A stretch of 64,000 nt of DNA from a virus: IMG/VR virus record IMGVR_UViG_3300021963_007958; one strand, given 5' to 3'. A program made the position numbers and the translations under genes. Positions within the stretch are counted from its first letter, which is position 1, and every line of letters begins with the position of its first letter. Below the pieces are notes generated by a model. The model did no database searches. It had not been told where the DNA came from and saw only the letters and a list, made by a program, of their open reading frames with translations. Positions 1,152-15,162 of the stretch are shown here, one piece after another.

Positions 1152-1171
1152 TTTACTGAATATATTCCTTC

Positions 1172-1179: not shown

Positions 1180-1192
1180 CAGTCAAAAAAGA

Positions 1193-1582
1193 CTACACCA
1201 CAGAGGTGTGGTTCCTTCCATCGTTCCAGTAACTCTCATCTCCGTACCAAATGAAGATTTCCTCCCCGGCAATAATGTCTCTATTTGCGATAAATTTGAA
1301 AGTTCTTCTGTCAAGATCAGAAACCCAATATGCATTTGCAGGGTCTGAATGATTATATAAAGAACCATATCCCCAAGAAATAACCTGCTCCTCCCACTCT
1401 GTTCCCTGTGGCCAATTAAATCTATAGTCGATTAAAAGAGAGGAAGATTCACCCTTCTGAATCGGGAGGGGAAGCACAGGACACTCCTCAAAGACTTCCC
1501 CTTCTTTTATGTTCTCTTTAGCAAAAACCCCCCAGCCATGGATTGGACTTCTATCAATAAATATTTTAAAGTTGTGGATCAT
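1193..1582 (-). CDS. SET-domain protein (lysine methyltransferase-like)
   Basis: SPIHGWGVFAKENI...YNHSDPAN...RDIIAGEEIFIWYG: canonical SET motifs. Confidence 0.9.
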   Translation of the reverse strand: MIHNFKIFIDRSPIHGWGVFAKENIKEGEVFEECPVLPLPIQKGESSSLLIDYRFNWPQGTEWEEQVISWGYGSLYNHSDPANAYWVSDLDRRTFKFIANRDIIAGEEIFIWYGDESYWNDGRNHTSVV

Positions 1583-2379
1583 AGATTAAAATAGTCTTTT
1601 AGTCCTTCTTCCAAAGACCATCGGGAAGTCCAACCGGACATCCATTTCTTTGGATTGCTACAGGTATAAAATTGGTATCCCTGAGGGATTACGGACTGGT
1701 CTAGATATCCATACGGAATCCCCATAATCTCCATTACGTCTTCAAAGGGTCTTGCCACCCCAGACCCAACTTCATAATATCTTCCCTCTAGAAGACTATA
1801 GTTCTCCATGGCATGAATATTGGAAGAGACTATATCTTTCACATAAACGAAGTCTCTTCTAGGGTTCTTCGGAAATAAATTTATATTCTTTCCTTCAGAG
1901 TGTAATACGGACATCTGATAAGCAACCGATGCCATCTTGCCTTTATTTTCTTCACCCGGGCCATAAACATTAAAATATCTAAGTGCAATTCCTCCATTGG
2001 AGATCACATAGTCTTCTGCTGCATATTTACTCCATCCATATAAATTAGAGGGATATTCATCATTTATTCCGTAATTAGCAGCTGACGAAGAGTATACCAG
2101 GGGGACTTTCTCAGAAGAACAGAGATTTGAGAGGTGCTTGGTGAACTCGTAGTTGACCAACATCATGTAGTTAACGTCGGTTTCTAGAGTATTGGAACAC
2201 GCACCGACGTGGAAGACTGCGGAAATATCTAGCCAAAAGTGCTTAGAGACTTCGTCCCTCCAATTAACAGTTTGGAAAATATCCTCGTTAATTTCTATGA
2301 TATCATACTTGGAATCTAGCTCTCTTTTAAGATTAGACCCAATGAATCCTTTAGTTCCGGTTATTATTATTTTTTTCAT
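1579..2379 (-). CDS. hldD: ADP-L-glycero-D-manno-heptose 6-epimerase-like SDR
   Basis: IITGTKGFIGSNL, FHVGACSNT, YSSSAANYG, YGWSK, LRYFNVYGPGEENKGKMASV, RRDFVYVKD, YQFYTC. Confidence 0.8.
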   Translation of the reverse strand: MKKIIITGTKGFIGSNLKRELDSKYDIIEINEDIFQTVNWRDEVSKHFWLDISAVFHVGACSNTLETDVNYMMLVNYEFTKHLSNLCSSEKVPLVYSSSAANYGINDEYPSNLYGWSKYAAEDYVISNGGIALRYFNVYGPGEENKGKMASVAYQMSVLHSEGKNINLFPKNPRRDFVYVKDIVSSNIHAMENYSLLEGRYYEVGSGVARPFEDVMEIMGIPYGYLDQSVIPQGYQFYTCSNPKKWMSGWTSRWSLEEGLKDYFNL

Positions 2380-2390
2380 TTCATTTCATT

Positions 2391-3221
2391 TTATTTATGT
2401 GCAATACAGATTCCATTTTCTCTAAAACTAATAAACCCTTTAGAGATTACAAAATTATTTATTTCTTCTCTTTTCTCCGTTGACAAATTATTATATTCAA
2501 AGACAATTAAATCCAAATGAGAATATTGATCATCAGAGAGACTATACAGAAGTTTATCGTCTATACCTTCAACGTCTAGATGGACCCACTTTGTATCCTG
2601 CGTGATTAGATCAGAGAATTTAATAGAGCTTCTTAGTGTGGAGGTTATCTCTTCAGTTTCCCACGACTCAATTACTGTTTTTTCTACGGAATTGGTATAA
2701 CCCTTTCCTCCTTCATAGAAAATAGTGTCTTCTCCATTATCCGTTACCAATTCATTAACAAAAGTTAAATTATCATAACTGGCATAGTTTTGGGAAAGCT
2801 CAGTAAATTGTTTTTCGCTAGCTTCTACTAGAGTAATATGGGCTAATTTATCTAGAGCTACAGGAACCCATTCACCAAATTCACCGCTATGTGTTCCTAC
2901 AACAACACCCTTTGAATTTGGGTTTATCTTACAATAATTCCACAGTTTTTGATACGGAAAGGTTCCGTTAGTAACAACATTCCATCGGTGGGTAAAAAGG
3001 TGGATCCCACAATTGTCTTTAACAATCACATCAATCATCTCAGTATCGGGAAATGTTGCCCAGCTATTGGAATTTAATCTCGTATCCCATATTTTCTTTC
3101 CATTAACTTGCCTCACAAAATCAAAGTGTAGGGGTAGTTGTTCACTGCTAAAAATCCCATTTAGATTATGGGTTTCTATTCTGATGCTGTCCGTACTATA
3201 ATTTATCTTAAACATTTTCAA
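2391..3221 (-). CDS. FkbM-like SAM methyltransferase with N-terminal extension
   Basis: VVVGTHSGE...LVEAS...HLDVEGID...IVFEY. Confidence 0.6.
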   Translation of the reverse strand: MKMFKINYSTDSIRIETHNLNGIFSSEQLPLHFDFVRQVNGKKIWDTRLNSNSWATFPDTEMIDVIVKDNCGIHLFTHRWNVVTNGTFPYQKLWNYCKINPNSKGVVVGTHSGEFGEWVPVALDKLAHITLVEASEKQFTELSQNYASYDNLTFVNELVTDNGEDTIFYEGGKGYTNSVEKTVIESWETEEITSTLRSSIKFSDLITQDTKWVHLDVEGIDDKLLYSLSDDQYSHLDLIVFEYNNLSTEKREEINNFVISKGFISFRENGICIAHK

Positions 3222-4179
3222 AGTAACTTATATTTCTAATAATTTCTTCGTGTTCACTAGAATAATCAATACCGTCTATTATTAATCGTTGAACACTTAG
3301 AGAGTCTTTTTCTATCTCTATAAATTTATTAGAGTTCAATAAAAAATTATAGCTTAACCCGTCACAAAAAACATCAACCCCTTTAGATACTTTTATGTCA
3401 TAGAAAAATAACCGTAACTTAGAGTCTAAGATTTCCATTACTGGAGGACTACCCTTCCAAGTTTCACAGGGTTCATTTTTATTGATAAACAATTTATAAT
3501 CGGGGCACTTAGAATAATCGAAAAAATCGAAATCTTCCCAATAATATATTTTGTCTTTAATGGGGTGAGGAGATATTTTGAGAGGTATTTCTTTGGCCCA
3601 TTTTAAGGCTTGTCCTTCAGCAACCCCATTACTATCCAAGTATGTTTTTCTGTCGATCATAGGTAAAATATCCTCCATCCTTTTTCTATCAAAAATCATA
3701 AGATGTAAAGTGGCTTCCCATAATTCATTAGGGTCGTTAGGATTAATTCTTGGGTGTATCAAATTACATTCATTAGAAAGAATTTCTCTTTCAATCTCAG
3801 AGTCAATTTCTAAATCATAAATTACGTGATAAAATAAATCATAGTCATAGTTTAAAGCTATTTGACTTAATCTCTTAACTTGGTTTAAGGCTGCCCATCC
3901 GTAATCTGCAATGTTTCTATGCATTTTTATAAATCCTTCCTCGTAAGAAATTGTCTTCCAAAAAGTGAAAGCTCTCTCTGGCCAAATTAGTAGAGGATTT
4001 TCTTTAGTGAAATAAAAATAGTCACACAATCTGATAACTTCCTGAGGGATTTCTATAAAATTAGGGCCGAGGCACATAACATCAAGTCCTAATTGTTTTA
4101 ACCGAATAATGTTTTCCCTTAAAATTTTTTGTTTTTCTGCTGTGTTACAAAAAGTGCTAATTAGGGCTAATTTTTTCAT
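3208..4179 (-). CDS. Putative glycosyltransferase (paralog family with 5666 and 7188 genes)
   Basis: Shares N-terminus and HxIxxD motif with two neighbours; lies in glycan island. Confidence 0.45.
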   Translation of the reverse strand: MKKLALISTFCNTAEKQKILRENIIRLKQLGLDVMCLGPNFIEIPQEVIRLCDYFYFTKENPLLIWPERAFTFWKTISYEEGFIKMHRNIADYGWAALNQVKRLSQIALNYDYDLFYHVIYDLEIDSEIEREILSNECNLIHPRINPNDPNELWEATLHLMIFDRKRMEDILPMIDRKTYLDSNGVAEGQALKWAKEIPLKISPHPIKDKIYYWEDFDFFDYSKCPDYKLFINKNEPCETWKGSPPVMEILDSKLRLFFYDIKVSKGVDVFCDGLSYNFLLNSNKFIEIEKDSLSVQRLIIDGIDYSSEHEEIIRNISYFENV

Positions 4180-5669
4180 AACATAAATTTAAATCTATAA
4201 TCTTTTTTAACTCCTAAGATTTCTTCAACACTTTTTTTAGTTACAATAATACAATTCTTGTAATGTGTGATCGATTCAATATTTTGGCGATTTTTAACAC
4301 TACTAAAATCGGAGTTTATTTTGTGTGGAACCGAAGAAAAATAATCAATAATATTGTAATTACCAATCTCATATCCATATATTGTTTCTTTGGGATTCCA
4401 GTAGTTACATTCAATGTCTTCAATAATATAAACCCCGCCTTCTTTTAGCATATTTTCAAATAGATAATTGAATGATTCTATTTGGTGTTGTGGCTGGTGA
4501 CTTCCATCATCAATAATAACATCGCACTGACCTATCAAATTAATCATTCTTTCCAAATCTTCAATCTTACTTTGGTCACCTTTATACATAATACCTCTTT
4601 CTTGATTTCTTTCTTCGGAGATATCCATAGCGTAAATCATACCATTTTTAAAATATTCAATCCACATTCTAAAAGAGGCCGCTTCACTACCAGAACCAAT
4701 CTCAAATAATTTTATTTTTTTATTCCTTAGTGGTTCTAAAAACTTTTCATAAATTCTATCATATCTATGTTCCAACACTTTATCTGTATTGTATTTTAAG
4801 CCAAGGCCATACATATCACTATTGTCTTGATTTCCAAGAATAATATTTACAACCTCATCAATAGCTTCTTTATAATCACTATATGGTCTAACACAGTTAA
4901 CATCAATATAAAACCCTTGTTTTAATTTTTCTATATCATATACTCCATATTTTTTTTGGTTCTCTATTTCACCATCCCATTTTAATTCCACAGGAAAGTT
5001 ATGCCTTTCTATTCTTCTTGGCGTTAAAAATTCTGTATAATGACCTCGTTTTAATTTAATAATCTCTACATCGTGTTGATTATTATTTACACAATCCGAA
5101 AAATAAAACTCGTCAATCAACCACATAATTTTATAGCCGTCTTTATGATTTGAGTGTCTATTCATAAATTCATCAAAAGAACAATCAGAATTTAATATTT
5201 TTGTGAAAGTTTTACCTTTGGCCACATTATACACATACCCGTACATCTCTTGTTTAAAAGGTAGTGGTTCTTTTACGAATAATTCGTTTGATTCGGGCCT
5301 GCTAAAATCATAAGCGTCACTCGACATTATAACGAAAGAGTCGTCCGGGTAGTGTTTTAATTGCTCAATAAAATAGTTTTTATTTATCATCAACATATCT
5401 AAATCCCCACATACACAAACATCCTCAGGAAAATATTTGGTACCGAACATTCTGACTGTGCAAGCTTGAATTGCAGTATGAATTCCTTGGACAGATTTGA
5501 TATTTTTTACTAATCCGTTTCCATCGTTATAGAACTCACTATCTTCATCAGAAATTTTAAAAAGAACCGGTTCCCAACCAAATAATTCTCGACACAATTT
5601 AGCTTGAATTGGCCAAAACTCTAAAAAGTAGGAGTTATCACTTGCGAATATTATTTTTTTTATCTTCAT
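4176..5669 (-). CDS. Fusion of GT-like domain and sugar O-methyltransferase-like domain
   Basis: N-terminal GDLDML (DxD); C-terminal TDK..HRY..IYEKF, FEIGSG, DVIIDDGSH, GGVYIIEDI. Confidence 0.65.
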   Translation of the reverse strand: MKIKKIIFASDNSYFLEFWPIQAKLCRELFGWEPVLFKISDEDSEFYNDGNGLVKNIKSVQGIHTAIQACTVRMFGTKYFPEDVCVCGDLDMLMINKNYFIEQLKHYPDDSFVIMSSDAYDFSRPESNELFVKEPLPFKQEMYGYVYNVAKGKTFTKILNSDCSFDEFMNRHSNHKDGYKIMWLIDEFYFSDCVNNNQHDVEIIKLKRGHYTEFLTPRRIERHNFPVELKWDGEIENQKKYGVYDIEKLKQGFYIDVNCVRPYSDYKEAIDEVVNIILGNQDNSDMYGLGLKYNTDKVLEHRYDRIYEKFLEPLRNKKIKLFEIGSGSEAASFRMWIEYFKNGMIYAMDISEERNQERGIMYKGDQSKIEDLERMINLIGQCDVIIDDGSHQPQHQIESFNYLFENMLKEGGVYIIEDIECNYWNPKETIYGYEIGNYNIIDYFSSVPHKINSDFSSVKNRQNIESITHYKNCIIVTKKSVEEILGVKKDYRFKFML

Positions 5670-6640
5670 TTGAAACTAAATTTTTTGAATTTTTCTTTAT
5701 CCTCTTTAAAGGAGAATTCACTTTTTATTTTATTATTTAAAATAACAGTTAAAGACTCAGCATTTTTGTAATCATCGATTGTAATTATTTTCCAATTATT
5801 TTTTGGGATGTCTCCAATATTGATTAATTGGTTATCATTATAAATTAATCTAACATTAATGACATCATTTGTGTGTTCCATATTCCACACAACAAATTCT
5901 AATTTATCTAAATCTCTGTTGTAAAAAGGTAAACACCAAGCTGTGTTGGTAGAGGCCAATTTGCCATGAGTTAAACCAAAATCATTATCTTGTAATAAAT
6001 CGGACTTAGATTTTACATAATAATTTTCAGAAAGTTTTAAAAGTTGTTGAAGCATGACCTCGGGAGTTTTATTAGTAGAATAGAGTATTTGACTCTTTAA
6101 ATAAGACTCATTTAATGTTAATAAATCTTTTGGGAGACTATCCAATTTATATGCTTGATAACTTCCAAATAAAACATCATTTAACACATCTTTATCGTTA
6201 ACATAAAAAATACTATCGTATGTGTCCAACAATTTAGAATTTTCAATTAGTTCCGAAAAATTATTAATAGATGAATCAAATTCAATATGATGGATTTTAT
6301 TATACCCCAATCCTTTGGCAAAAGAATTACCTAATATAATCATCCTCCAAATAGCCAACTGTTTGTTATACTCACCAGTAAATATGGATTGTATAGTGCC
6401 ACTATTGCCAGGATAAAAATATTGAAAGTCTCTAAATTCCCAGTCATAAATAAGTTCATTTTTATAATCGTATATACTATAATGACATTTTTCCTGAATA
6501 TCTTGGGGGATAGTAGTATGTGATACAATTAGTATATCAAAATATTCTTTTTGTAAATTAATTTGAATGACAAGATTTCTTAAAGTTTCTTGTTTATCTA
6601 AAGTATCGGAATAATTAGATATTAGAATTAAATCTTTCAT
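5666..6640 (-). CDS. Putative glycosyltransferase (paralog family)
   Basis: Start reassigned to ATG 6640 (ATGA overlap with upstream stop; MKDLILI matches paralog); [11 protein letters not shown]. Confidence 0.5.
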
Positions 6641-7185
6641 AAGAATTTTTCTATAAAATTGTCGATATTGTCGGACCACATATTCATCGCATTATCTCTA
6701 ATTTTTTGTTCCTCCCAGTTCCACCAAGCAATTGATAAAAGTTTTTCAATTTGTTCTTCAGTGAATCTATACTTAACAATTTTAGCAGGATTACCTGCAA
6801 CAATTGCATAAGGGGGAACGTCTTTGGTAACAACAGAGCCCGCAGCAACAACTGCACCATTTGAAATTTTAACCCCCGACATTATTGTGGCGGTCGCCCC
6901 AATCCAAACGTCGTTTTCGATAATTATATCACCTTTACAAGATGGGTGTCCCATATCCATGTGCATCTGAGCAATCTCATGATTTACTGGTCCCCAAAGC
7001 TGGGATGAAGTTGTGATCCAATCGGGTCTATGGTTTGCATGCAAAAAGAAATTACAATCTCTACCTATTGAGTTGTACTTACCTATTCTGACGTGATATT
7101 GGTCGCTCCATGATATTATATTAACGTTTCTATCGAAATATGTTCCTCTATCGGAGTGCCACAAATGTATGTTTTCTATACTCAT
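6637..7185 (-). CDS. CatB/Vat-like hexapeptide-repeat O-acetyltransferase
   Basis: [51 protein letters not shown]. Confidence 0.9.
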
Positions 7186-7187
7186 GA

Positions 7188-8761: not shown

Positions 8762-9402
8762 TTTTTGTATACATCAAATTGAGATAGATCCGGGTATGGT
8801 AATTCTAAATCTTGGTTGTGTTTCTTAGTCCCATCAAGATTATAGAATTGATTCATTAGTAATAATCCTCTTGTTGCAAGTTCTGGCATCATATAAAAAT
8901 TCCAACCTAACATATCAAGGTTATCATCATGATATGAACATTCACGTCTTCCACTATATCTTGCTCTTTTAAACCAATGGTAAGCATCTAAACTATCAGT
9001 CAAAATCGCCCCGCCTTTACTTAATTTAAAATGTTTATATGGACCGGTAAAAGAAACACACATGTGACTACCTGGTCTATACATGTCCGCAGTAAACGAC
9101 AAAGCAGAATCCCAAACATTTGAACCGATTAGCTGGTACGCTCCTTTTATTGTTCTACCTTCAACGGGTATGAAATTTACTTTTAAACCAGCATGTATAA
9201 TTTCACACGGAACAGATGGATATGTTCTATTCGGGATTGAAATTTTATCTCCCTTGATTGACTTAACTATATTTTTTTCATAGTACAACGCCAAGAATAA
9301 AGCGTTACTCATGTTATCAAGGGTGACAACATAAGGTGCTCCTGTGTATCTTCCAAGTTCTTTTTCAAAATCGTCTGTTATCTGATAAACTCCGTTAGCC
9401 AT
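8758..9402 (-). CDS. Short DegT/DnrJ/EryC1-family PLP aminotransferase
   Basis: FEKELGRYTG, VWDSA, SFTGPYKH (PLP lysine), GGAILTD, GWNFYM. Confidence 0.75.
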   Translation of the reverse strand: MANGVYQITDDFEKELGRYTGAPYVVTLDNMSNALFLALYYEKNIVKSIKGDKISIPNRTYPSVPCEIIHAGLKVNFIPVEGRTIKGAYQLIGSNVWDSALSFTADMYRPGSHMCVSFTGPYKHFKLSKGGAILTDSLDAYHWFKRARYSGRRECSYHDDNLDMLGWNFYMMPELATRGLLLMNQFYNLDGTKKHNQDLELPYPDLSQFDVYKK

Positions 9403-9414
9403 ATATCTTTAATA

Positions 9415-10143
9415 TTAATTTCTATTATCTATGTGGATTATAACCTGTCGGTAATACTCCAAAAAATGATCATTCCACAAATCCCACTTTATGTCAATAT
9501 TATCTACTGAATAAATTTCGTAATTCTGAAATTTGGATAAAAAACCGTCCCTGAACTGTCTAAATTTTTCAATGTAGTTGTGTCCCTGTAGTTGTAGATG
9601 CCACTCCCCTGTAATTTTTTTAACATTTGATTTAATCCAATCTAGATTTTCTAAAGTAAATATATCAAATTCTCCCCCTTCACAATCCGTTTTTAGAAAA
9701 TCAATTTTTTCAATCCCGTATAGATTGATAAACTTTTGAAAAGTAATTGACTCCATTTGGGCTTCACCCCCAAATAAGTGGTCATTCCCAACTATAGAAT
9801 TTACACTAGAAATTCCCTTTGGGATTGGTACTACCGGGTAACCTTTGGTGTTATTAACCAGAGTTTTAAACTCCCGTTCGCTTGGTTCGAAACAAAATAT
9901 CTGTTTAGGGTTTTTATGCAATACTGAATATGCAAAAGGTCCTACGCTTGCTCCTATATCGAGAACAACATCTCCTTCCTCTACTTCGAAGAATTTTTCG
10001 TAGCACTTATCTACAAATATTTCCTGTATGATCGAGTCTTTATGATATTGTCCCATCCCTTTATGTGAACCATCGGACATTATATGGTAGGTGTCAGAGG
10101 GCTCGTCCATCCAACCCCAATTGAAATTTGTTAAGTCTATCAT
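9415..10143 (-). CDS. FkbM-family methyltransferase
   Basis: VVLDIGASVG, CFEPS, IDFLKTDCEGGE. Confidence 0.85.
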   Translation of the reverse strand: MIDLTNFNWGWMDEPSDTYHIMSDGSHKGMGQYHKDSIIQEIFVDKCYEKFFEVEEGDVVLDIGASVGPFAYSVLHKNPKQIFCFEPSEREFKTLVNNTKGYPVVPIPKGISSVNSIVGNDHLFGGEAQMESITFQKFINLYGIEKIDFLKTDCEGGEFDIFTLENLDWIKSNVKKITGEWHLQLQGHNYIEKFRQFRDGFLSKFQNYEIYSVDNIDIKWDLWNDHFLEYYRQVIIHIDNRN

Positions 10144-12449
10144 TTTGGTAAAGCATTAAATACTGTTAGTGGGGATATAGATTTTGAACAGATGTGTTGT
10201 TTATCTGTTCCTTTCCAAATTGGACACCAGTCCCAATCTCCTGCATCAAATATAAAGTTAATGTTTGCCCAGCAAGAATTGCATGCGTGTTCATTTTGAA
10301 TTCTTGTGATGTTTGTTCCAAACTCATGATCTTTTGCGGTGAATCCACTGATCATAACCGTATGCTTTCCTAGGGACCAATTGATCCAAGCTAAACCGGA
10401 ACTTAATCCTATGAGATATTCTGCATGGAATAGAATATTGAAAGAGTCTTCCAGGGATTTACCATGGACACATTTTGCATTTTTAAGGGTATATGGTTTA
10501 TGGGTTAGACATACTACTTCATATCCCTCTTCCACCAACATGTTTGTTAATATTTGCCATCCTTCGTAAGTCCACTCTTTACATCCTGCCGTTGATTCGG
10601 GGGCAATCACAATGTATTTGTTTTGATATGGTTTATCCTTTGGATTGAATTTAATTCCGTAATTTCTTTCTACAAAATCCAATCCTAAAATATCACTTGC
10701 TGTTTTTTGTAATGGTTGAGAGTTCAAAGGATAGGGGTAAGAATCAAACTTATCCCATCTATTTTTATCCGAACGAAACCATCCAACCCTGTAAATTGAA
10801 TCACAATGAGTCTTTTGTCCTGGGCTGATAAATTCAATATCCGAGTAATCTTTGACTCCTTCAAACCAGTTGTTATGAAATGTCGATAAGATTACCTTAC
10901 ATCCATTCTTCTTCGAGAAATCAACAACATAAGGTGCCCATGCTAAGGTGTCCCCAATCGATTTAGACTCAAAAGAGATCAAAACCCTTTTGTTTTTAAG
11001 GGTGAACGTGTCAATAACTTTCCCGTTAACTTTTATAATCCAATCAATGTAATACTTCTTTGAACAAGAACACCACATATTATTAGTTATAGTTTGAGAA
11101 TGAAGAACTTTATCTGTTTTTGAATCGACAAATTCAATTAAATATGCGGCGTCATAATCCCCAAGAATCTCAACTTTTGGACCCTCGAAATAACTCACGT
11201 TGATTGAATTTGTATCTGAGTTTTTATTGTATTCATCGGAGCTGATTTTTTCCATAAAGGCATTAACTTTTTCCTGTCCTATTTTTGCAACAACCTCCCA
11301 TGAAAATTTGTCCCTTAAATCAGAACTTTCAATGACCGCCTTTTCTTTATAGGAATCATAATTCTCGTATACATCTCTCATGACTTCAGATAGATGTCCA
11401 AAATCAGGCTCGTAATAATTTCCTGGAAGTTCACTCATAGTGTACCTTCCATAGTTATTTTTATTTGCAGGTTTTTCTCCCAGAATTTTTACAGGTATTC
11501 CCTTTCCTTCCGCAAACTCCATCTGAGCGCAGCACTCGGAATAAATAGAAGGGGTTCCGCAAGCCATAGCTTCGATAAGTGGTAAATTCCACCCTTCAGA
11601 TCTTGCACAGGAAACAAATACGTGGCCGGTCTTAAGATACTTGATATAATCCTCCCTCGATGGAAAATGTATAATTTTAATCCGGGGGTCGATTAATCCA
11701 TAATTTTGTAAACGTTCTTCGGTCGTCTTAAATCCATCCATTTCTTCACCCCACATGTTATCAATAGACACAATCAAGTCAATAGGTTCTTCAGGGGAGA
11801 AAGTACTAAGAAAGGTTTCAATAATTTCTTTAGTCGATTTTCTATAGTCCCAACGACCCATAAGGAGAAATTTAAATCTATCGTCTCTATATTCTTCAAG
11901 CGGTTCAACCTTTTCCGGGTAAAATGTATGCACATCCACACCTTCGGGGACAACTTTAACTTTATCTGGGTCGGCACCTTGTTCAATAGTACATTCTCTT
12001 TGCCATTTACTCGGAACCCAAATCTCATCAAATTTCAATAGCTGGTTAAAAAAATCATCAGGCTGCCTTGTTGACTCCCATACGTTATATGCAATCTTTG
12101 GACCAATATACTTATCATAATAGAGATGATGATTAGTCTCATTTAACACAATATTAAAGTCTGGTCTAAATTCTTTTTCGGGGGATTCATAAATCTTAAA
12201 ATCCTCCATTTTGCCATCTGCAACCCACAGTCTTTGTTGGTACAACAAAGATTTATCAACCTCGTTTAAATAAGGTTCTCCATCGTGGGGAGTGCTATTC
12301 AGTCCATTCCATGAATTGCCTACGGTAAAATTTCTAACTTTAATTTCCGAATACTTTGAAAGTTCTCTGAAGAAATCCCGGGTGTGATTATTGTACCCGG
12401 TAGTTCCAATATAAGAACCATGTGCATAAATTTTAATCCTATTCTTCAT
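10140..12449 (-). CDS. GT4 glycosyltransferase fused to TibC/Aah-like autotransporter heptosyltransferase domain
   Basis: N-terminal VWES, VPSKWQ, GRWDYRK, EGWNLPLIEAMACGTP; C-terminal SKSIGDTLAW, IGLSSGLAW, ISGFT, CNSCW...WDWCP...CSKSI. Confidence 0.8.
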   Translation of the reverse strand: MKNRIKIYAHGSYIGTTGYNNHTRDFFRELSKYSEIKVRNFTVGNSWNGLNSTPHDGEPYLNEVDKSLLYQQRLWVADGKMEDFKIYESPEKEFRPDFNIVLNETNHHLYYDKYIGPKIAYNVWESTRQPDDFFNQLLKFDEIWVPSKWQRECTIEQGADPDKVKVVPEGVDVHTFYPEKVEPLEEYRDDRFKFLLMGRWDYRKSTKEIIETFLSTFSPEEPIDLIVSIDNMWGEEMDGFKTTEERLQNYGLIDPRIKIIHFPSREDYIKYLKTGHVFVSCARSEGWNLPLIEAMACGTPSIYSECCAQMEFAEGKGIPVKILGEKPANKNNYGRYTMSELPGNYYEPDFGHLSEVMRDVYENYDSYKEKAVIESSDLRDKFSWEVVAKIGQEKVNAFMEKISSDEYNKNSDTNSINVSYFEGPKVEILGDYDAAYLIEFVDSKTDKVLHSQTITNNMWCSCSKKYYIDWIIKVNGKVIDTFTLKNKRVLISFESKSIGDTLAWAPYVVDFSKKNGCKVILSTFHNNWFEGVKDYSDIEFISPGQKTHCDSIYRVGWFRSDKNRWDKFDSYPYPLNSQPLQKTASDILGLDFVERNYGIKFNPKDKPYQNKYIVIAPESTAGCKEWTYEGWQILTNMLVEEGYEVVCLTHKPYTLKNAKCVHGKSLEDSFNILFHAEYLIGLSSGLAWINWSLGKHTVMISGFTAKDHEFGTNITRIQNEHACNSCWANINFIFDAGDWDWCPIWKGTDKQHICSKSISPLTVFNALPK

Positions 12450-12457
12450 AGGGAAAA

Positions 12458-12736
12458 TTACTTCTGTTTAGGAGTGTATATTCCGGTACCAAAGTCCAAA
12501 TCTCCCTCACCATATTTGGATGTAATCTCCTGGACTACTCTAGTTTCTTCCATGCTTAGATCTTCGGAAACCGAGTAAGCTTGATCTAGATCCCCGAGAA
12601 TCTGATCTAAATCTAACTGAGTAAAATGTCTTTTGATGTTAAGTCTTCCTATAGACTCGACGTTGGTCCTAATTCTTTCTCTAAGATCTAGTAGAGAGTT
12701 TAATTCTTCCTGTGAAATTTTTATCTGATCTGACAT
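12458..12736 (-). CDS. Small coiled-coil hypothetical phage protein
   Basis: 92 aa, ends KYGEGDLDFGTGIY. Confidence 0.6.
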   Translation of the reverse strand: MSDQIKISQEELNSLLDLRERIRTNVESIGRLNIKRHFTQLDLDQILGDLDQAYSVSEDLSMEETRVVQEITSKYGEGDLDFGTGIYTPKQK

Positions 12737-12790
12737 ATGAATACTTTTTTATCTTTATTCATATAGAAAAATCGGTAGATAGTTTCAACA

Positions 12791-12816
12791 AAAAAGCTCA
12801 GATTTCTGAGCTTTTT
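12791..12816. terminator. Intrinsic terminator hairpin
   Basis: AAAAAGCTCAGA-TT-TCTGAGCTTTTT just after the stop at 12840. Confidence 0.75.
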
Positions 12817-12839
12817 AAAATATTTTTTGACGATTCATT

Positions 12840-13169
12840 TTACCATCCGGTGAGAATAGTTCTCTTCCAAGTGTCTGTTCCAACACAAACATAAAGCCAG
12901 TCTGAGTCGAGAGCCAATTGCCCAGTTGCTCCAGTGGCTCCTGAAGATCCTGGCGGGATGTCAGTAACTAAATAAGTTCCGGTTGGACCTACCGGTCCAG
13001 TGGGTCCAGTTCCCCCAAAATATTCTAAGTTAATCCAAGGAGTCTGTCCGTCTCCGATCTTTGCATATCCCGTATTTAGCTCGTAACCAAATTCTCCTTG
13101 CAGAAGGATAGGATTATTTGAAGTCCAGTTGGACGATGTGTCTCTTCTAATTTGTATTCTATATGCCAT
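12840..13169 (-). CDS. Mtd_N/hyaluronidase-N-like short fibre protein with collagen-like GPT/GAT repeats
   Basis: RIQIRRDTSSNWTSNNPILLQGEFGYELNTGYAKIGDGQTPW, then GGTGPTGPVGPTG and GATGATG. Confidence 0.8.
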   Translation of the reverse strand: MAYRIQIRRDTSSNWTSNNPILLQGEFGYELNTGYAKIGDGQTPWINLEYFGGTGPTGPVGPTGTYLVTDIPPGSSGATGATGQLALDSDWLYVCVGTDTWKRTILTGW

Positions 13170-13171
13170 TT

Positions 13172-13486
13172 TTACAATTGATTTAGTAATCTTGTCTGAG
13201 TTGGAAATTCTCCCCCGATGATAGGGCCATAGAACTGAGCAGTTCCGTCTTCCGATGTTCCTCCATCCAAGATGTCTCTAAAATTATTTTCCACTGAGAT
13301 CTGCTTAGTCCAAAAATTTCCAAAAGTCGAATAATTTCTAGTCTCAGTTCTTGCGGACTTCTTGACATAGTTATTTTCGGTTCCAATAAAATAGAGGGTG
13401 TCAGAAGTCTGGCTGCTGGATCCATCAATGATCCTAACAGAGAGTCCCGGTTCTAATATTGGGTTATTTGGAAAATTATTAGCCAT
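13172..13486 (-). CDS. Hypothetical, probably virion protein
   Basis: ORF behind AATATATA box (13507-13514), adjacent to fibre gene. Confidence 0.5.
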   Translation of the reverse strand: MANNFPNNPILEPGLSVRIIDGSSSQTSDTLYFIGTENNYVKKSARTETRNYSTFGNFWTKQISVENNFRDILDGGTSEDGTAQFYGPIIGGEFPTQTRLLNQL

Positions 13487-13538
13487 AATACAATTCAGTA
13501 TTTTTCTATATATTCAATCTTTCAAGAAAAATCCAGGA

Positions 13539-14288
13539 CTAAAATAAACTAGAATTACCCGGCAAATTTGTCTGTTCGTCTGTCGATATCTTTAATCTAA
13601 TTCCAGCCTGCATTAAATTTCCTCTAAATCTTTCCGTCTCGAGATCTTTTTGAGGATAGTAAGTTTCAACTGCAACACTAAATGTGGTTTCTATCCATTT
13701 TTGGGTGTTTTGGTAGCTAAACTCTAATTGCTTATCATTTTGATATTGCTCGGGAAATCCAACTTGAACTGGAACTCTCATCCCTCCAAATTCGACACTG
13801 AAGCTGAAAACCTTATAGAAAACTTGGATTACTGCCTGAAATATTTTAAAAGTATCTAAAAGTGTATCTGCCCTTAGCTTAACATCGAAAGTCATCGAGA
13901 GCGGAATAGAAGTTGTGTATGCAGAATATGCTTTCATCTGGCCCTGGACATCCTCCACGTTATATGTTGCTCTAACAAATCCGCTAGTTAGAGATGCAGT
14001 CTCAATATTAACTCCAGTTAGTGTAACAATTCCTCGGGGAATAATATCATAGTTCCCCTCTGCAAATGGGGACTGTCCATCGCAGTCTAAATAGTCAAGG
14101 TAAAAGTCCTGAAGGAAAGTCTCGTCCCCTGACATCGAGTAAAAGAATGGGATGTAGACCTGGAGAATTTGCTGTTGTTGATTGATCTGAGTATATGTAA
14201 CCCTCTCGTTTAAATTCCTCAGCAGACCAACGATTATTCCTCTTAAGAATACCTCATCAACGTTATATTTTTCTAAAAATCCTGACAT
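13539..14288 (-). CDS. Tail sheath stabiliser/terminator (T4 gp15-like)
   Basis: VYIPFFY...IIPRG...SIPLSMTFDV...IFQAVIQVFY; start reassigned to ATG 14288 just after the upstream stop. Confidence 0.6.
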   Translation of the reverse strand: MSGFLEKYNVDEVFLRGIIVGLLRNLNERVTYTQINQQQQILQVYIPFFYSMSGDETFLQDFYLDYLDCDGQSPFAEGNYDIIPRGIVTLTGVNIETASLTSGFVRATYNVEDVQGQMKAYSAYTTSIPLSMTFDVKLRADTLLDTFKIFQAVIQVFYKVFSFSVEFGGMRVPVQVGFPEQYQNDKQLEFSYQNTQKWIETTFSVAVETYYPQKDLETERFRGNLMQAGIRLKISTDEQTNLPGNSSLF

Positions 14289-14289
14289 A

Positions 14290-15162
14290 TTATGATACAA
14301 TTACAAAGTTTGTTTTAGTGATGCTAGATGACCCGTTTGCATTAGTTGCAGTTAGTGTAACGGTATAAGAACCAGTTGCTCCAAAAGAGACTAGGGGATT
14401 TTGAGCTGTTGCTCCAGTTGCACCTGCACATGCTCCAGTTCCTCCAAAGTTCCAAGACCAAGATGTTGGTTGTACTGTGGTTGGGGTTCGAACGGAAAGA
14501 TCCAAAAATCCGACAGTTCCTCCCAATGAAATTGCAGTCCCCCCAGTCTGTCCAAAATAAGTGGAGAAATTTGGATAAGGAGGCATAGGAAGCATTCCTT
14601 TTTGAGTTTGAACTCCGGAGGGGGTAAGTGGAAAATTCGGAGCCCCTATTGGAACATTATCGAGCCTTCCTGGAATAGTTTGAACTATAACAGGAACTTC
14701 TGCATATCTAAAATACAATGGAGTGTTCTCCATTGTTGTATAAACTGGGTGCTGGAAAGAGTTATTCTCGTATTCGGTTTGGGTAAGACCGTAAACACTA
14801 TTCTGTTTCATTCCAAGTTGAGTTGCACAATCAGAAGAAGTAATTGGTCCTAAAGTTCTAACTACAACAAAAGAATAGAGTTTTTCATCTCCTGCTGGAA
14901 TATAAGTGTTCTCGTACTGGGCAAAGAAAATTGAGTAGGTCTGAACTGAAGTCTGAGCGTAGACCGGGTTTCCTTTAGAGTTGGTTTCCGGGACATATTC
15001 AGTAGCAACTACAGGAAGTGGTTTCAAATAACCAATTCCGAGAAGACCTTTACCTTGGGTGTTGGGTTCAACCATTGTAGCTTGAACAGCAGTAAGTCCT
15101 TTCTTCTTCAGATCGGACTTAGTTACTTGTAAATTTTGATTTCTGCTATATAGTGGCTTCAA
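14290..15162 (-). CDS. Virion protein with C-terminal PKD domain
   Basis: PTSWSWNFG...QNPLVSFGATGSYTVTLTATNANGS; GATATATA box at 15183-15190; TTG start uncertain. Confidence 0.7.
   Translation of the reverse strand: MKPLYSRNQNLQVTKSDLKKKGLTAVQATMVEPNTQGKGLLGIGYLKPLPVVATEYVPETNSKGNPVYAQTSVQTYSIFFAQYENTYIPAGDEKLYSFVVVRTLGPITSSDCATQLGMKQNSVYGLTQTEYENNSFQHPVYTTMENTPLYFRYAEVPVIVQTIPGRLDNVPIGAPNFPLTPSGVQTQKGMLPMPPYPNFSTYFGQTGGTAISLGGTVGFLDLSVRTPTTVQPTSWSWNFGGTGACAGATGATAQNPLVSFGATGSYTVTLTATNANGSSSITKTNFVIVS

What the first reader, a model, noticed from the sequence alone, without database searches (positions are those of the whole stretch)
1579..15162. Phage-encoded protein heptosylation/glycosylation system beside its candidate fibre substrates
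Seen: an HldD-like epimerase (1579-2379) and a 769-aa GT4 fused to a domain with SIGDTLAW, GLSSGLAW, ISGFT and a CxxCW...WCP...C cluster bracket the island. Just upstream are a Thr-rich collagen-like Mtd_N fibre gene (GPTGPVGPTG, GATGATG) and a PKD protein with GATGATA. Known: TibC/Aah heptosyltransferases use ADP-heptose, carry a four-Cys iron site and O-glycosylate proteins; Thr in GPT collagen-like repeats (e.g. BclA) can be O-glycosylated. Inference: the phage primes its own virion fibres with heptose, then extends, acetylates and methylates the glycan. That would be a phage counterpart of giant-virus fibril glycosylation.
Basis: partly seen in the sequence, partly recalled or inferred. 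Interest (0 to 1): 0.8.

Follow-up and report, generated by a model that had tools for sequence, protein, structure and literature searches.

The report
Phage TibC-type fibre glycosylation island
An uncultured giant T4-like phage carries an 11.5-kb block of sugar-handling genes led by a true relative of TibC, the E. coli enzyme that sugar-coats adhesins. Comparison with other phages and with bacteria suggests it sugar-coats collagen-like fibre proteins of the virus particle, but here the only visible target is a tiny 109-residue fibre and no sugar has been observed.

Summary
The 769-aa ORF (10140-12449, minus strand) is a GT4 domain fused to a TibC/Aah-family (BAHT) domain. It scores 228.6 bits on TIGR04414 (cut-off 200) and E=3.5e-36 against the TibC structure, but only 26 bits on LPS heptosyltransferase I. 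The catalytic Asp, the phosphate and heptose contacts and the four iron-binding Cys are invariant in 61 phage homologues. The adenine-contact Arg-286 is never Arg, and the dodecamer "thumb" is deleted. ORF 1579-2379 is HldD-like.

The fusion is conserved (51-76% identity) in more than 80 viral contigs, next to tail genes. Collagen-like genes lie upstream in 23 of 32 loci with enough flank. In cellular genomes, 22 of the 35 closest homologues sit beside Gly-Ser/Thr-Ser repeat genes. Some relatives add a collagen lysyl-hydroxylase/galactosyltransferase.

- The window's only Gly-X-Y tracts are 9 triplets in a 109-aa Mtd_N mini-fibre, separated from the enzyme unit by a conserved terminator.
- No gmhA, hldE or gmhB lies in the 64 kb.
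- The HldD-like gene is missing from the closest relatives.

This scan has noted the same TibC-plus-collagen-fibre pattern in many other genomes. No published description of it was found.

The parts
12458..12736 (-). p92: small acidic coiled-coil protein, first gene of the unit. It is the homologue of the 83-aa gene that lies next to the fusion in 70 of 81 related loci.
   Evidence: phmmer hits to the 83-aa cluster. Cluster statistics. No match in cultured phages. A virus-only, unannotated family in the Atlas.
10140..12449 (-). 769-aa bifunctional glycosyltransferase: GT4 domain (aa ~100-390, with an E-x7-E motif at EGWNLPLIE) fused to a TibC/Aah-type BAHT domain (aa 415-766). Key residues: Asp500, Thr620, Lys624, Trp688 and Cys723/726/742/754.
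   Evidence: It is 76% identical without gaps to the L094 orthologue.
9415..10143 (-). FkbM-family methyltransferase
   Evidence: PF05050 5.3e-08; TIGR01444 46.8 bits against a cut-off of 37.7.
8758..9402 (-). Short (214 aa) DegT/PseC-like protein that matches only the N-terminal part of the aminotransferase profile. The short length is conserved in relatives, so it is not a decayed fragment.
   Evidence: Orthologues of 213-226 aa score E=1e-118 to 1e-132.
8180..8761 (-). NeuD/PglB/VioB-family sugar N-acetyltransferase (left-handed beta-helix)
   Evidence: TIGR03570 146 bits, E=1.1e-42; Hexapep and PglD_N.
7188..8183 (-). GT-A-fold glycosyltransferase with a C-terminal beta-sandwich, paralogue 3. 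No Pfam match.
   Evidence: AlphaFold2 model with pLDDT 84.2. Foldseek hits to TarS, GnT-I, mannosylglycerate synthase and glycogenin at probability 1.00. Alignment A3 has invariant Asp35 and Asp122.
6637..7185 (-). Vat/CatB-type hexapeptide O-acetyltransferase
   Evidence: NF000311 132 bits, well below that model's curated cut-off of 300; Hexapep; phrog_16087 1.2e-47.
5666..6679 (-). GT-A-fold glycosyltransferase, paralogue 2
   Evidence: 39% identical to 7188-8183 in alignment A3. Fold inferred from the model of its paralogue.
4176..5669 (-). 497-aa protein: an unannotated N-terminal domain plus a C-terminal class I SAM methyltransferase
   Evidence: phrog_21658 6.5e-19 over aa 288-423; weak Methyltransf_31/24.
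3208..4179 (-). GT-A-fold glycosyltransferase, paralogue 1. Members of this family abut the fusion gene in 13 related loci.
2391..3221 (-). FkbM-like methyltransferase (weak match). It is fused to paralogue 1 in L002-L004.
   Evidence: TIGR01444 E=0.0019; 599-aa fused form in L002.
1579..2379 (-). HldD-like (ADP-heptose 6-epimerase-like) SDR, 266 aa. It keeps the YGWSK and KGKMASV motifs. It is present here and in L002-L004 and G004, but absent from the closest relatives L091-L094.
1193..1582 (-). SET-domain protein (putative protein-lysine methyltransferase), last gene of the unit. It is followed by a terminator-like hairpin at 1197-1212.
   Evidence: PF00856 1.1e-15. The closest solved structure is PBCV-1 vSET, 1.1e-12. 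Hairpin.
12840..13169 (-). 109-aa mini-fibre (P0002), the only visible candidate acceptor. It has an Mtd_N anchor domain, 5+4 Gly-X-Thr/Ser triplets and a conserved C-terminal motif.
   Evidence: Orthologues carry 13 triplets (L094) and 35 triplets (L095). The N-terminal domain is shared with hundreds of annotated phage fibre and structural proteins.
12791..12816 (.). Bidirectional terminator-like hairpin (11-bp stem) between the mini-fibre gene and p92. The hairpin is kept in L094 with a different stem sequence.
13172..13486 (-). p104: unannotated small protein co-transcribed with the mini-fibre. An ATATATAG motif lies upstream at 13506-13513.
13539..14300 (-). Weakly gp15-like (tail sheath stabiliser/completion) protein. 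This is context, not part of the enzyme unit.
   Evidence: PF16724 E=0.00069; phrog_22065 4.6e-4.
14290..15162 (-). PKD-domain protein. This is context. It has no repeat tract of the acceptor type.
   Evidence: PF18911 2e-08.

Best explanation
Genes 12736 down to 1193 (minus strand) form one 15-gene unit that builds and decorates an O-linked glycan on phage structural proteins.

**Proposed mechanism**
- The BAHT domain of the 769-aa fusion uses Asp500 as its base. It transfers a heptose-type sugar from a nucleotide sugar onto Ser/Thr hydroxyls of Gly-X-Ser/Thr (collagen-like) tracts in fibre proteins, in the host cytoplasm before or during virion assembly.
- The fused GT4 domain and the three GT-A paralogues add further sugars.
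- The NeuD-type and Vat-type acetyltransferases and the FkbM/class I methyltransferases tailor the glycan.
- The HldD-like epimerase adjusts the heptose C6 configuration of the donor. This fits Ser683 at the TibC Pro-300 position, the AAH-type residue that tolerates L,D-heptose.
- In this phage the best visible acceptor is the 109-aa Mtd_N mini-fibre two genes upstream. Longer acceptors may lie in the unseen part of the genome.

**Shown:** family membership by sequence, residue conservation, gene order, and the comparative association with collagen-like genes.

**Inferred:** the sugar, the acceptor, the order of steps, and the virion location.
For: **1. BAHT by sequence.** TIGR04414 scores 228.6 bits against a cut-off of 200, while LPS heptosyltransferase I scores 26.3. 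The match to TibC 4rap is E=3.5e-36 over nearly the whole enzyme.

**2. Functional residues kept.** The residues defined in PMC4358343 as Asp-110, Thr-226, Lys-230, Trp-305 and Cys-339/342/358/370 are invariant in 61 distinct phage homologues. The orthologue in L094 is 76% identical with no gaps.

**3. Conserved place in the virion module.**
- 76 of 81 related loci have the same GT4+BAHT fusion.
- 77 loci have the tail sheath gene and other conserved module genes, one weakly T4-baseplate-like, just downstream.
- A collagen-like ORF of at least 10 triplets lies upstream in 23 of 32 loci that have at least 5 kb of upstream flank. None lies downstream in 46 comparable loci.

**4. Independent contexts.**
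- Mel-JY01 and a 735-kb megaphage have Gly-Ser/Thr-Ser ORFs within 4 kb.
- The 348-kb phage G009 has a BAHT gene 4-5 kb from collagen-like genes of 388, 2603 and 789 aa.
- In cellular genomes, 22 of the 35 best-scoring homologues have a Gly-[ST]-S repeat ORF within 8 kb, against 1 of 45 more distant ones.

**5. Collagen-modifying neighbour.** In 23 related loci a 786-aa protein lies between the collagen-like gene and the fusion. It matches procollagen lysyl hydroxylase LH3 (1.1e-20), a procollagen lysyl hydroxylase/glycosyltransferase chain (6ax6, 1.5e-19; the mimivirus enzyme, from my own recollection) and procollagen galactosyltransferase 1 (1.6e-13).

**6. The mini-fibre family.** P0002 has a fibre-type Mtd_N anchor. 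Its family has a variable-length Gly-X-Thr tract of 9, 13 or 35 triplets.

**7. Heptose lead.**
- The window has an HldD-like gene.
- Relative G001 has PfkB, CTP_transf_like and HldD-like genes within 5 kb.
- In G004 a PfkB kinase abuts the HldD-like gene, and its best solved hit is heptose 7-phosphate kinase (2.9e-11).

**8. A protein-modification theme.** The unit ends with a SET-domain protein-methyltransferase homologue.
Against: - The window has no long collagen-like or Ser/Thr-rich gene. P0002 offers at most about 8 Ser/Thr-bearing triplets.
- A conserved terminator separates P0002 from the enzyme unit. The unit lacks the ATATATAG motif found upstream of the neighbouring structural genes, so co-expression is not shown.
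- Arg-286 contacts adenine N1 in TibC and is required for activity. It is Ser here and never Arg in the phage clade.
- The beta-hairpin thumb needed for the TibC dodecamer is deleted.
- No gmhA, hldE or gmhB lies in 64 kb. No GmhA or SIS-domain gene was found in any of the ten relatives' records searched, including three complete genomes.
- The HldD-like gene is missing from the closest relatives.
- The phage loci are related to one another, so their shared gene order is partly inheritance rather than independent evidence.
- Known BAHT acceptors are beta-helical autotransporters, not collagen-like helices.
Confidence: 0.5

Rival explanations
1. Host-envelope remodelling. The island is an auxiliary 'LPS/O-antigen-type' cassette. 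It alters host surface glycans or host surface proteins during infection, for example to block superinfection. The BAHT domain would act on a host protein or lipid-linked acceptor.
For: Glycosyltransferase-rich hypervariable regions next to the fibre genes of T4-like pelagimyophages have been read this way (PMC7029224). The island has low G+C (0.29-0.34 against about 0.37) and variable content between relatives, as O-antigen-like cassettes do. The unit has its own terminators and lacks the motif seen before the neighbouring structural genes. The window holds a second 14-kb glycan island with GT2, GT6, GT11, GT47 and UDP-galactopyranose mutase.
Against: The BAHT domain scores as a protein O-heptosyltransferase, not as an LPS GT9 enzyme. 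Its recurring neighbours in phages and in bacteria are Gly-Ser/Thr-Ser repeat proteins. Relatives add collagen-specific modifying enzymes. No flippase, polymerase, ligase or undecaprenyl-phosphate priming transferase family appeared in the Pfam scans of the window.
Confidence: 0.2
2. Virion glycosylation, but on a different acceptor. The enzyme would modify the tail sheath or tube, capsid or decoration proteins (as in mycobacteriophages), or a long fibre encoded outside the window. On this reading the 109-aa mini-fibre is irrelevant.
For: The tail sheath gene is the most constant neighbour, just downstream of the fusion in 77 of 81 loci. P0002 is short and sits in a separate transcription unit. 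Mycobacteriophage glycans sit on capsid and tail-tube subunits (as cited in PMC12619734). The closest relatives' records are only about 35% complete, so most of this lineage's genome is unseen.
Against: Bacterial homologues have no sheath genes nearby yet still pair with Gly-[ST]-S repeat genes. The P0002 family expands exactly the Gly-X-Thr tract. In this window the sheath gene is not adjacent: no sheath family appears in 64 kb.
Confidence: 0.15
3. Same enzyme class, but the donor is not ADP-heptose. The phage clade would use another nucleotide (CDP- or UDP-heptose) or another sugar. The HldD-like protein would then act on a different NDP-sugar.
For: Arg-286, the residue that makes TibC ADP-specific, is replaced by Ser, Val, Ile or Thr throughout the clade. 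The HldD-like protein scores below its equivalog cut-off, and pairwise alignment to E. coli HldD shows gaps in its N-terminal nucleotide-binding part. Some heptose nucleotidyltransferases make CDP- and UDP-heptose, whose roles are unknown, and heptose biosynthetic enzymes occur in viruses (PMC11573728). Most relatives carry no heptose genes at all.
Against: Trp-305 (heptose O4 contact), Thr-226 and Lys-230 are invariant. Two relatives cluster HldA-, HldC- and HldD-like genes. Ser683 matches the AAH residue that accommodates L,D-heptose.
Confidence: 0.3
4. DNA hypermodification. The transferases would glycosylate modified bases in the phage DNA.
For: T4-like phages glucosylate their DNA, and virus-encoded glycosyltransferases can put diverse glycans on DNA (reference cited in PMC12619734). 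The window also encodes SHMT and MTHFR.
Against: No base-hydroxymethylase or DNA glucosyltransferase family was detected in the unit. BAHT enzymes act on proteins. The number and variety of transferases, acetyltransferases and methyltransferases fits a complex glycan, not a base adduct.
Confidence: 0.03

Closest known systems
TibC (ETEC) and AAH/Aah (AIDA-I system): bacterial autotransporter heptosyltransferases, BAHT family (TIGR04414; PDB 4RAP/4RB4; PMC4358343)
   Same: The whole enzyme aligns except its first ~40 residues (TibC 41-379). It scores above the equivalog cut-off. It has the same catalytic Asp, beta-phosphate contacts (Thr, Lys), heptose O4 contact (Trp) and Cys4 iron finger. Ser at the stereoselectivity position matches AAH.
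   Different: It is fused behind a GT4 domain. The adenine-contact Arg-286 is absent and the dodecamer-forming beta-hairpin thumb is deleted. It is encoded by a phage with no autotransporter. The likely acceptors are Gly-X-Ser/Thr collagen-like tracts rather than a beta-helix.
Mycobacteriophage virion glycosylation (Freeman et al. 2023, Cell Host Microbe; PMC10527164, known to me only as cited in PMC12619734)
   Same: Phage-encoded glycosyltransferases near structural genes O-glycosylate the phage's own virion proteins.
   Different: The enzyme families differ (no BAHT there). The acceptors are capsid and tail-tube C-termini, not collagen-like tracts. That system was shown by experiment, whereas nothing has been measured here.
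Giant-virus fibril and collagen modification: mimivirus L230 lysyl hydroxylase/glucosyltransferase and virus-encoded glycan pathways (review PMC4691112 was found but not read; the identification of 6ax6 as the mimivirus enzyme is my own recollection)
   Same: The virus encodes its own multi-enzyme glycan machinery for surface fibres. Relatives of this phage carry an LH3-type hydroxylase and a COLGALT1-type domain next to collagen-like genes. The window holds about 25 kb of sugar genes in two islands.
   Different: This is a bacterial virus. The priming enzyme is BAHT-type. The window itself has no hydroxylase and no long collagen-like gene.
BclA of the Bacillus anthracis exosporium: a collagen-like Gly-Pro-Thr repeat protein O-glycosylated on Thr (my own knowledge, not checked here)
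   Same: Thr sits in the Y position of the collagen-like triplets, as in the P0002 family (GPT, GST, GAT).
   Different: BclA carries a rhamnose/anthrose oligosaccharide made by unrelated enzymes. P0002 has only 9 triplets.
[quoted passage not shown]
   Same: It is the best family and the best structures for ORF 1579-2379. The Tyr-x3-Lys and KG-MASV motifs are kept.
   Different: It is 266 aa against about 310, with gaps in the N-terminal nucleotide-binding part. It scores 186 bits, below the 274.6 cut-off. There are no partner gmhA, hldE or gmhB genes in the window.

Membership tests
BAHT (TibC/Aah autotransporter O-heptosyltransferases, TIGR04414) | Scores above the curated equivalog cut-off, and better than on LPS GT9 heptosyltransferases | tested here: met
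   228.6 bits against a cut-off of 200. TIGR02193 (WaaC type) scores 26.3 bits. TibC structure E=3.5e-36.
BAHT (TibC/Aah autotransporter O-heptosyltransferases, TIGR04414) | Catalytic base Asp-110 and the sugar/phosphate contacts Thr-226, Lys-230 and Trp-305 | tested here: met
   Asp500, Thr620, Lys624 and Trp688 here; invariant in 61 distinct phage homologues.
BAHT (TibC/Aah autotransporter O-heptosyltransferases, TIGR04414) | Arg-286 contacting adenine N1 (basis of ADP specificity; the R286A mutant is inactive) | tested here: not met
   Ser669 here. The column is V, I, S, T, L or A and never Arg in 61 homologues.
BAHT (TibC/Aah autotransporter O-heptosyltransferases, TIGR04414) | Four-Cys iron finger (Cys-339/342/358/370) | tested here: met
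   Cys723, 726, 742 and 754 are invariant. Iron binding itself cannot be tested here.
BAHT (TibC/Aah autotransporter O-heptosyltransferases, TIGR04414) | Beta-hairpin thumb (Phe-265/Val-266) and a ring-shaped dodecamer | tested here: not met
   A 9-residue gap at the thumb in the pairwise alignment. The loop is short in the relatives inspected. The oligomeric state itself cannot be tested here.
BAHT (TibC/Aah autotransporter O-heptosyltransferases, TIGR04414) | N-terminal flattened beta-barrel domain (TibC residues 1-97) | tested here: inconclusive
   The alignment starts at TibC residue 41. TibC_1st matches weakly (E=0.0024, aa 434-474). The TIGR04414 match starts at profile position 11.
BAHT (TibC/Aah autotransporter O-heptosyltransferases, TIGR04414) | Acceptor is a self-associating autotransporter passenger (beta-helix repeats), usually encoded next door | tested here: not met
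   No autotransporter family appears in the window. The neighbours across phages and the nearest cellular homologues are Gly-X-Ser/Thr repeat proteins.
BAHT (TibC/Aah autotransporter O-heptosyltransferases, TIGR04414) | Transfers heptose from ADP-heptose to Ser/Thr | not testable with these tools
   Needs an enzyme assay or glycoproteomics.
[quoted passage not shown] | Scores above the equivalog cut-off | tested here: not met
   186 bits against a cut-off of 274.6, although it is the best family by 45 orders of magnitude.
[quoted passage not shown] | SDR catalytic Tyr-x3-Lys and the HldD-specific KG-MASV segment | tested here: met
   YGWSK and KGKMASV align with E. coli HldD (1eq2, E=6.7e-33).
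[quoted passage not shown] | Works in a pathway with GmhA, HldE (or HldA+HldC) and GmhB | tested here: not met
   None of them is in the 64-kb window. HldA- and HldC-like genes accompany the orthologue in relatives G001 and G004. The rest of this genome could not be read.
Phage virion self-glycosylation systems | Phage-encoded transferases within or next to the structural module | tested here: met
   The unit lies between the gp15-like/mini-fibre genes and further structural genes. In 77 of 81 relatives it lies directly upstream of the tail sheath gene.
Phage virion self-glycosylation systems | Glycan demonstrated on virion proteins | not testable with these tools
   The phage is uncultured and no proteomic data are available.
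Collagen-like (Gly-X-Y) fibre proteins as acceptors | A long uninterrupted Gly-X-Y tract with Ser/Thr in X or Y, next to the enzyme | tested here: inconclusive
   Only 5+4 triplets, in the 109-aa P0002. Orthologues have 13 and 35 triplets. Long tracts are common in relatives.

The most novel reading that the evidence does not exclude
A large, undescribed clade of TibC-type enzymes (584 clusters at E<=1e-30), in phages and in some bacteria, has been retargeted from autotransporter beta-helices to collagen-like Gly-X-Ser/Thr triple helices. It has lost the adenine-reading Arg and the dodecamer thumb, and it may use CDP- or UDP-heptose. That would give the first physiological role both for virus-encoded heptose enzymes and for these orphan nucleotide-heptoses. 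In this giant phage the enzyme would prime a complex acetylated and methylated glycan, built by about 25 kb of genes, that coats virion fibres: a bacterial-virus counterpart of giant-virus fibril glycosylation.
Probability: 0.2. Interest if true: 0.85.

Novelty: new variant of a known kind. Interest (0 to 1): 0.62.

Why it matters
Phage self-glycosylation has been shown by experiment only in mycobacteriophages. BAHT enzymes are known only as virulence-associated modifiers of E. coli-type autotransporters.

A conserved phage clade of BAHT enzymes, wired to collagen-like fibres, would do four things:
- Extend protein O-heptosylation to viruses and to a new acceptor fold.
- Explain why heptose-pathway genes occur in viruses. 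The literature states this question as open (PMC11573728).
- Reinterpret the 'LPS-type' glycosyltransferase islands next to the fibre genes of aquatic T4-like phages as virion-coating machinery rather than host-surface modifiers.
- Bear on host range, on adsorption and on how virions are shielded from recognition.

The system is directly testable by co-expression in E. coli.

Tried and rejected
**Reading the rest of this genome failed.**
- No assembly is held for the window.
- An exact 37-mer from the window start was absent from IMG/VR and from the JGI metagenome contigs.
- So gmhA/hldE/gmhB and longer collagen-like genes could be sought only in the 64-kb window and in relatives.

**Searches that found little or nothing.**
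- blastn of 10140-15162 against 50,697 phage records found only short fragments.
- Full-text searches for TibC, heptosyltransferase and phage, and for Mel-JY01, found no description of a phage BAHT.
- The first genome-contig scan, with the single sequence, found nothing. The profile-based scan worked.
- p92 has no Pfam, PHROG, cultured-phage or named Atlas relative.

**Ideas rejected.**
- The T4 late-promoter motif TATAAATA is not enriched: 4 matches against 6.3 expected. The generic sigma-70 scan was at background, 71 against 61.6. Expression timing could therefore not be inferred.
- The PKD protein as a substrate: it has no repeat tract.
- The 214-aa DegT-like ORF as a decayed fragment: its length and sequence are conserved in relatives.
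- The 250-aa gene next to the HldD-like gene in G001 as a PfkB kinase: it has no similarity to the G004 kinase. The real PfkB gene of G001 lies about 3.5 kb away.

**Limit on the window-wide Pfam check.** It used pooled scans. For the second half of the window, 8 of 33 families were not listed. All of these were weaker than E=1.3e-6.

Full report
**Setting.** All genes of the finding lie on the minus strand. Earlier notes of this scan place the window in an uncultured giant T4-like phage. I could confirm only the phage character:
- a weakly gp15-like protein;
- SbcC/SbcD, DnaB and RecA-like genes;
- close synteny with IMG/VR viral contigs.

An exact 37-mer from the window was absent from IMG/VR and from the JGI metagenome contigs. 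Nothing outside the 64 kb could therefore be read directly.

ORF 10140-12449 encodes 769 aa.
- Residues ~100-390 are a GT4 domain (PF00534 6.8e-11; phrog_2170 2e-32). It contains an E-x7-E-type segment, EGWNLPLIE.
- Residues 415-766 match the NCBIfam equivalog for autotransporter O-heptosyltransferases, TIGR04414, at 228.6 bits (cut-off 200).
- The LPS heptosyltransferase I model scores 26.3 bits.
- Against solved structures the only strong hit is TibC (4rap/4rb4, E=3.5e-36, query 436-763 on TibC 41-379).

ORF 1579-2379 is an SDR whose best family is the heptose 6-epimerase equivalog (186 bits; below the 274.6 cut-off; next family E=1e-9). Its four best solved relatives are all HldD (E=6.7e-33 to 7.3e-27), with the Tyr-x3-Lys and KG-MASV segments aligned.

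ORF 12840-13169 (109 aa) has an Mtd_N domain (1.7e-14) and the only Gly-X-Y runs in any frame of the window: GGTGPTGPVGPTG and GSSGATGATG. The PKD protein (14290-15162) has no such tract.

**Residue-level test of the BAHT domain.** The TibC structure paper (PMC4358343) defines these residues:
- Asp-110, the catalytic base;
- Thr-226 and Lys-230, which bind the beta-phosphate;
- Trp-305, which contacts heptose O4;
- Arg-286, which contacts adenine N1 and makes the enzyme ADP-specific (R286A is inactive);
- Pro-300, which determines D,D-heptose selectivity (AAH has Ser and accepts L,D-heptose);
- Cys-339/342/358/370, the iron finger;
- a beta-hairpin thumb (Phe-265/Val-266) needed for the dodecamer.

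I aligned the window protein with 60 distinct homologues from viral contigs.
- Asp, Thr, Lys, Trp and all four Cys are invariant.
- The Arg-286 column is never Arg (Ser669 here).
- The Pro-300 column is Ser (here, Ser683) or Gly.
- The thumb is a 9-residue gap in the pairwise alignment and a short loop in the relatives inspected.

The enzyme is therefore very probably active and sugar-phosphate-binding like TibC. Its nucleotide specificity and quaternary structure probably differ.

**The unit.** From p92 (12458-12736) to the SET-domain gene (1193-1582), fifteen genes follow one another closely on the minus strand, many with overlapping ends. The unit lies between a terminator-like hairpin at 12791-12816 and another at 1197-1212. 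The upstream hairpin is kept in the relative L094 with a different stem sequence.

Besides the fusion, the unit encodes:
- an FkbM methyltransferase, and a second, weaker FkbM-like protein;
- a conserved short DegT-like protein;
- a NeuD/PglB-type N-acetyltransferase (TIGR03570, 146 bits);
- a Vat/CatB-type O-acetyltransferase;
- a 497-aa protein with a C-terminal methyltransferase domain;
- the HldD-like epimerase;
- three paralogous ORFs of 323-337 aa with no family match.

I modelled one of the three paralogues from a 12-sequence alignment (pLDDT 84.2). Foldseek places it among GT-A nucleotide-sugar transferases (TarS, GnT-I, mannosylglycerate synthase, glycogenin; probability 1.00).

The unit thus holds five glycosyltransferase domains, two acetyltransferases and three or four methyltransferases. 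Its G+C content is 0.29-0.34, against about 0.37 for the window.

**Relatives and gene order.** Among 50,697 deposited phage genomes, only four contain a TibC-like domain: Microcystis phage Mel-JY01 and three megaphages of 636-735 kb. IMG/VR, by contrast, holds at least 103 close relatives, of which 80 were fetched (51-66% identity).
- In 76 of 81 loci the domain sits in the same ~760-aa GT4+BAHT fusion.
- In 77 loci the fusion is followed by the tail sheath gene (PF04984), a 162-aa gene, a gene with a weak T4-baseplate match and further conserved genes.
- An 83-aa gene between the fusion and the sheath gene in 70 loci is the homologue of the window's p92. Here it precedes the fusion.

A second search, with the mini-fibre as query, found the true nearest relatives, L091-L094. 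Their fusion is 76% identical without gaps. Their order is the same as in the window: PKD, gp15-like, p104, mini-fibre, p92, fusion, sugar genes, SET. These relatives lack the HldD-like and second FkbM genes. The epimerase is therefore an accessory part of the cassette.

**What the enzyme acts on: comparative evidence.** Collagen-like ORFs (at least 10 Gly-X-Y triplets) lie upstream of the fusion in 23 of the 32 loci with at least 5 kb of upstream flank. None lies downstream in the 46 loci with at least 5 kb of downstream flank. They come in two kinds:
- proline-free Gly-[ST]-S tracts ending 67 bp before the fusion;
- Gly-Pro-X tracts about 4.5 kb upstream.

With the second kind, the intervening 786-aa protein matches human procollagen lysyl hydroxylase LH3 (1.1e-20), a procollagen lysyl hydroxylase/glycosyltransferase chain (6ax6, 1.5e-19; the mimivirus enzyme, from my own recollection) and procollagen galactosyltransferase 1 (1.6e-13). 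That is dedicated collagen-modifying machinery in the same block.

The phage loci are related to one another, so I looked for independent contexts.
- Mel-JY01 and one megaphage have Gly-Ser/Thr-Ser ORFs within 4 kb; a second megaphage does not.
- The complete 348-kb phage G009 has a stand-alone BAHT gene 4-5 kb from collagen-like genes of 388, 2603 and 789 aa.
- The complete 176-kb G002 has collagen-like genes of 797 and 3469 aa upstream of its fusion.

Most telling are the bacterial and archaeal genomes (168 relatives, 80 fetched). Of the 35 best-scoring loci, 22 have a Gly-[ST]-S repeat ORF within 8 kb. These include Methylomicrobium isolate and MAG assemblies and an Arenicellales MAG assembled to chromosome level. 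Among the 45 more distant loci (Acetobacteraceae, Burkholderiaceae and others) only 1 does.

This reproduces, with my own data, what several earlier notes of this scan reported for other genomes. The family is large: 584 clusters at E<=1e-30, many of them long multi-domain proteins.

**What that means for this window.** Here the acceptor argument is weak. The only Gly-X-Y tracts are the nine triplets of the 109-aa protein, and no gene is Ser/Thr-rich.

The protein does look like a minimal fibre.
- Its N-terminal domain is shared with hundreds of annotated phage fibre and structural proteins.
- Its C-terminal motif recurs on tail proteins.
- Its family varies precisely in the length of a Gly-X-Thr tract: 9 triplets here, 13 in L094 and 35 in the 278-aa version of G009.

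Against it, the mini-fibre is transcribed in a separate unit (p104 plus mini-fibre). That unit is preceded by an ATATATAG motif that the enzyme unit lacks, and it is closed by the conserved hairpin. The closest relatives' records are only about 35% complete. Longer acceptors may therefore exist in the unseen part of the genome.

**Which sugar.** Points in favour of heptose:
- the BAHT homology and the invariant Trp-305;
- the HldD-like gene;
- Ser683, the AAH-type residue compatible with L,D-heptose;
- the orthologous epimerase of relative G001, which lies within 5 kb of a PfkB kinase and a small cytidylyltransferase-like protein;
- the orthologous epimerase of G004, which abuts a PfkB kinase whose best solved relative is D-beta-D-heptose 7-phosphate kinase (2.9e-11).

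Points against certainty:
- Arg-286 is missing.
- No SIS/GmhA gene was found in any of the ten relatives' records searched, three of them complete genomes.
- No PfkB, CTP_transf, SIS or HAD family was found in the window. All ORFs of at least 90 aa were scanned. For the second half of the window, families weaker than E=1.3e-6 were not listed.
- The complete relatives G002 and G009 lack HldA-type genes.

The literature notes that heptose biosynthetic enzymes occur in viruses with unknown purpose. It also notes that some nucleotidyltransferases make CDP- and UDP-heptose of unknown role (PMC11573728). A non-ADP heptose donor is therefore a live possibility.

**Rivals.**
- *Host-envelope remodelling.* This is the published reading for glycosyltransferase-rich regions next to the fibre genes of pelagimyophages (PMC7029224). 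It fits the low G+C content, the variable content and the separate transcription of the island. It does not explain the BAHT-specific score, the recurrent repeat-protein neighbours in bacteria or the collagen-specific enzymes in relatives. No lipid-linked glycan export or priming families were seen in the window.
- *A different virion acceptor.* Sheath, tube, capsid or an unseen fibre cannot be excluded.
- *DNA glycosylation.* This is unlikely.

**Known or new.** Full-text searches found no paper that links TibC/BAHT enzymes to phages. Phage virion glycosylation as such is known from mycobacteriophages (cited in PMC12619734), and virus-encoded fibre glycosylation from giant viruses. I therefore class this as a new variant of a known kind.

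For this particular window:
- The enzyme and the cassette are solid.
- The acceptor and the sugar are inferences.
- The "substrates beside it" part of the finding's title is the weakest element.

Noticed in passing
window 30594-46011: A second glycan island, about 14-15 kb and mostly on the minus strand. It holds GT6 (30594-31301), GT2-like (31298-32023, 35586-36350, 43159-43857), UDP-galactopyranose mutase (33258-34358, 3.2e-78), DUF3431, two Methyltransf_24 genes, an exostosin GT47/RXYLT1-like gene (36352-37203), a full-length DegT aminotransferase (39295-40491), FkbM (42545-43165) and GT11 (43842-44678). Together with the first island, about 25 kb of the window is sugar chemistry, much of it from families better known in eukaryotes.
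   Followed up: partly
window 44749-45420 (+): A 223-aa ORF that is a clear homologue of animal beta-1,4-galactosyltransferase 1 (GT7; E=7.3e-39 to human and bovine B4GalT1 structures). This is unusual for a phage.
   Followed up: partly
window 1193-1582 (-): A SET-domain protein closes the glycosylation unit. Its closest solved structure is the chlorovirus PBCV-1 vSET histone H3K27 methyltransferase (1.1e-12). It is conserved next to the island in L002-L004 and L094, so it may methylate a lysine of the same structural target.
   Followed up: partly
window 1171, 13506, 15182, 21303, 24625, 30049, 45422, 49262: The motif ATATATAG occurs 8 times (2.75 expected; no shuffle of 100 reached 8). Most copies lie about 20-30 nt upstream of a start codon (up383, p104, the PKD gene, the SHMT gene and others); the plus-strand copy at 21303 falls inside ORF 21229-22692. 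It is a candidate phage promoter element that differs from the T4 late TATAAATA, which is not enriched here. It is absent upstream of the p92-fusion unit.
   Followed up: partly
window 12458-12736 (-); 83-aa genes in 70 of 81 related loci: A small acidic coiled-coil protein stays glued to the GT4-BAHT fusion: downstream of it in most relatives, upstream here and in L091-L094. It has no match in cultured phages and belongs to a virus-only unannotated family. It could be a chaperone or adaptor for the enzyme or for the fibres.
   Followed up: partly
L044:252-2612 and 22 other related loci: A 786-aa phage protein combines GT4, a procollagen galactosyltransferase-like (GT25) domain and a procollagen lysyl-hydroxylase-like 2OG oxygenase domain (LH3 1.1e-20; 6ax6 chain 1.5e-19). 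It lies between a Gly-Pro-X collagen-like gene with Lys in the Y position and the BAHT fusion. This looks like animal- and mimivirus-type collagen modification in phages.
   Followed up: partly
L106 (JABMPP010000123.1, 3.9-kb contig of a 'Candidatus Woesearchaeota' MAG): It encodes a BAHT domain 78% identical to the window's, far closer than any other cellular hit (41% or less). It is probably a phage contig binned into an archaeal MAG.
   Followed up: no
window 23323-24603 and ORFs in 46-64 kb: Serine hydroxymethyltransferase (1.2e-160) is confirmed at 23323-24603 only by ORF size. Methylenetetrahydrofolate reductase (4.8e-65), a PALP enzyme (4.2e-66) and a ClpB-like AAA+ protein are present in the window. 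One-carbon supply may feed the many methyltransferases.
   Followed up: no
L193:1294-1953 (relative G007): A 219-aa protein starts with an acidic helix (…LMGDLEDVGLG) like the 'portable tag' noted earlier in this genome. It contains a 9-triplet Gly-Ser/Thr tract, so it is another possible acceptor type in this lineage.
   Followed up: no
L001 (Microcystis phage Mel-JY01, PP395634.1) 2-3052: An open frame with about 200 Gly-Ser/Thr-Ser triplets runs on the plus strand. The record annotates two minus-strand hypothetical genes there, so the collagen-like gene next to the 1226-aa FkbM…TibC fusion may be mis-called in the deposited annotation.
   Followed up: no
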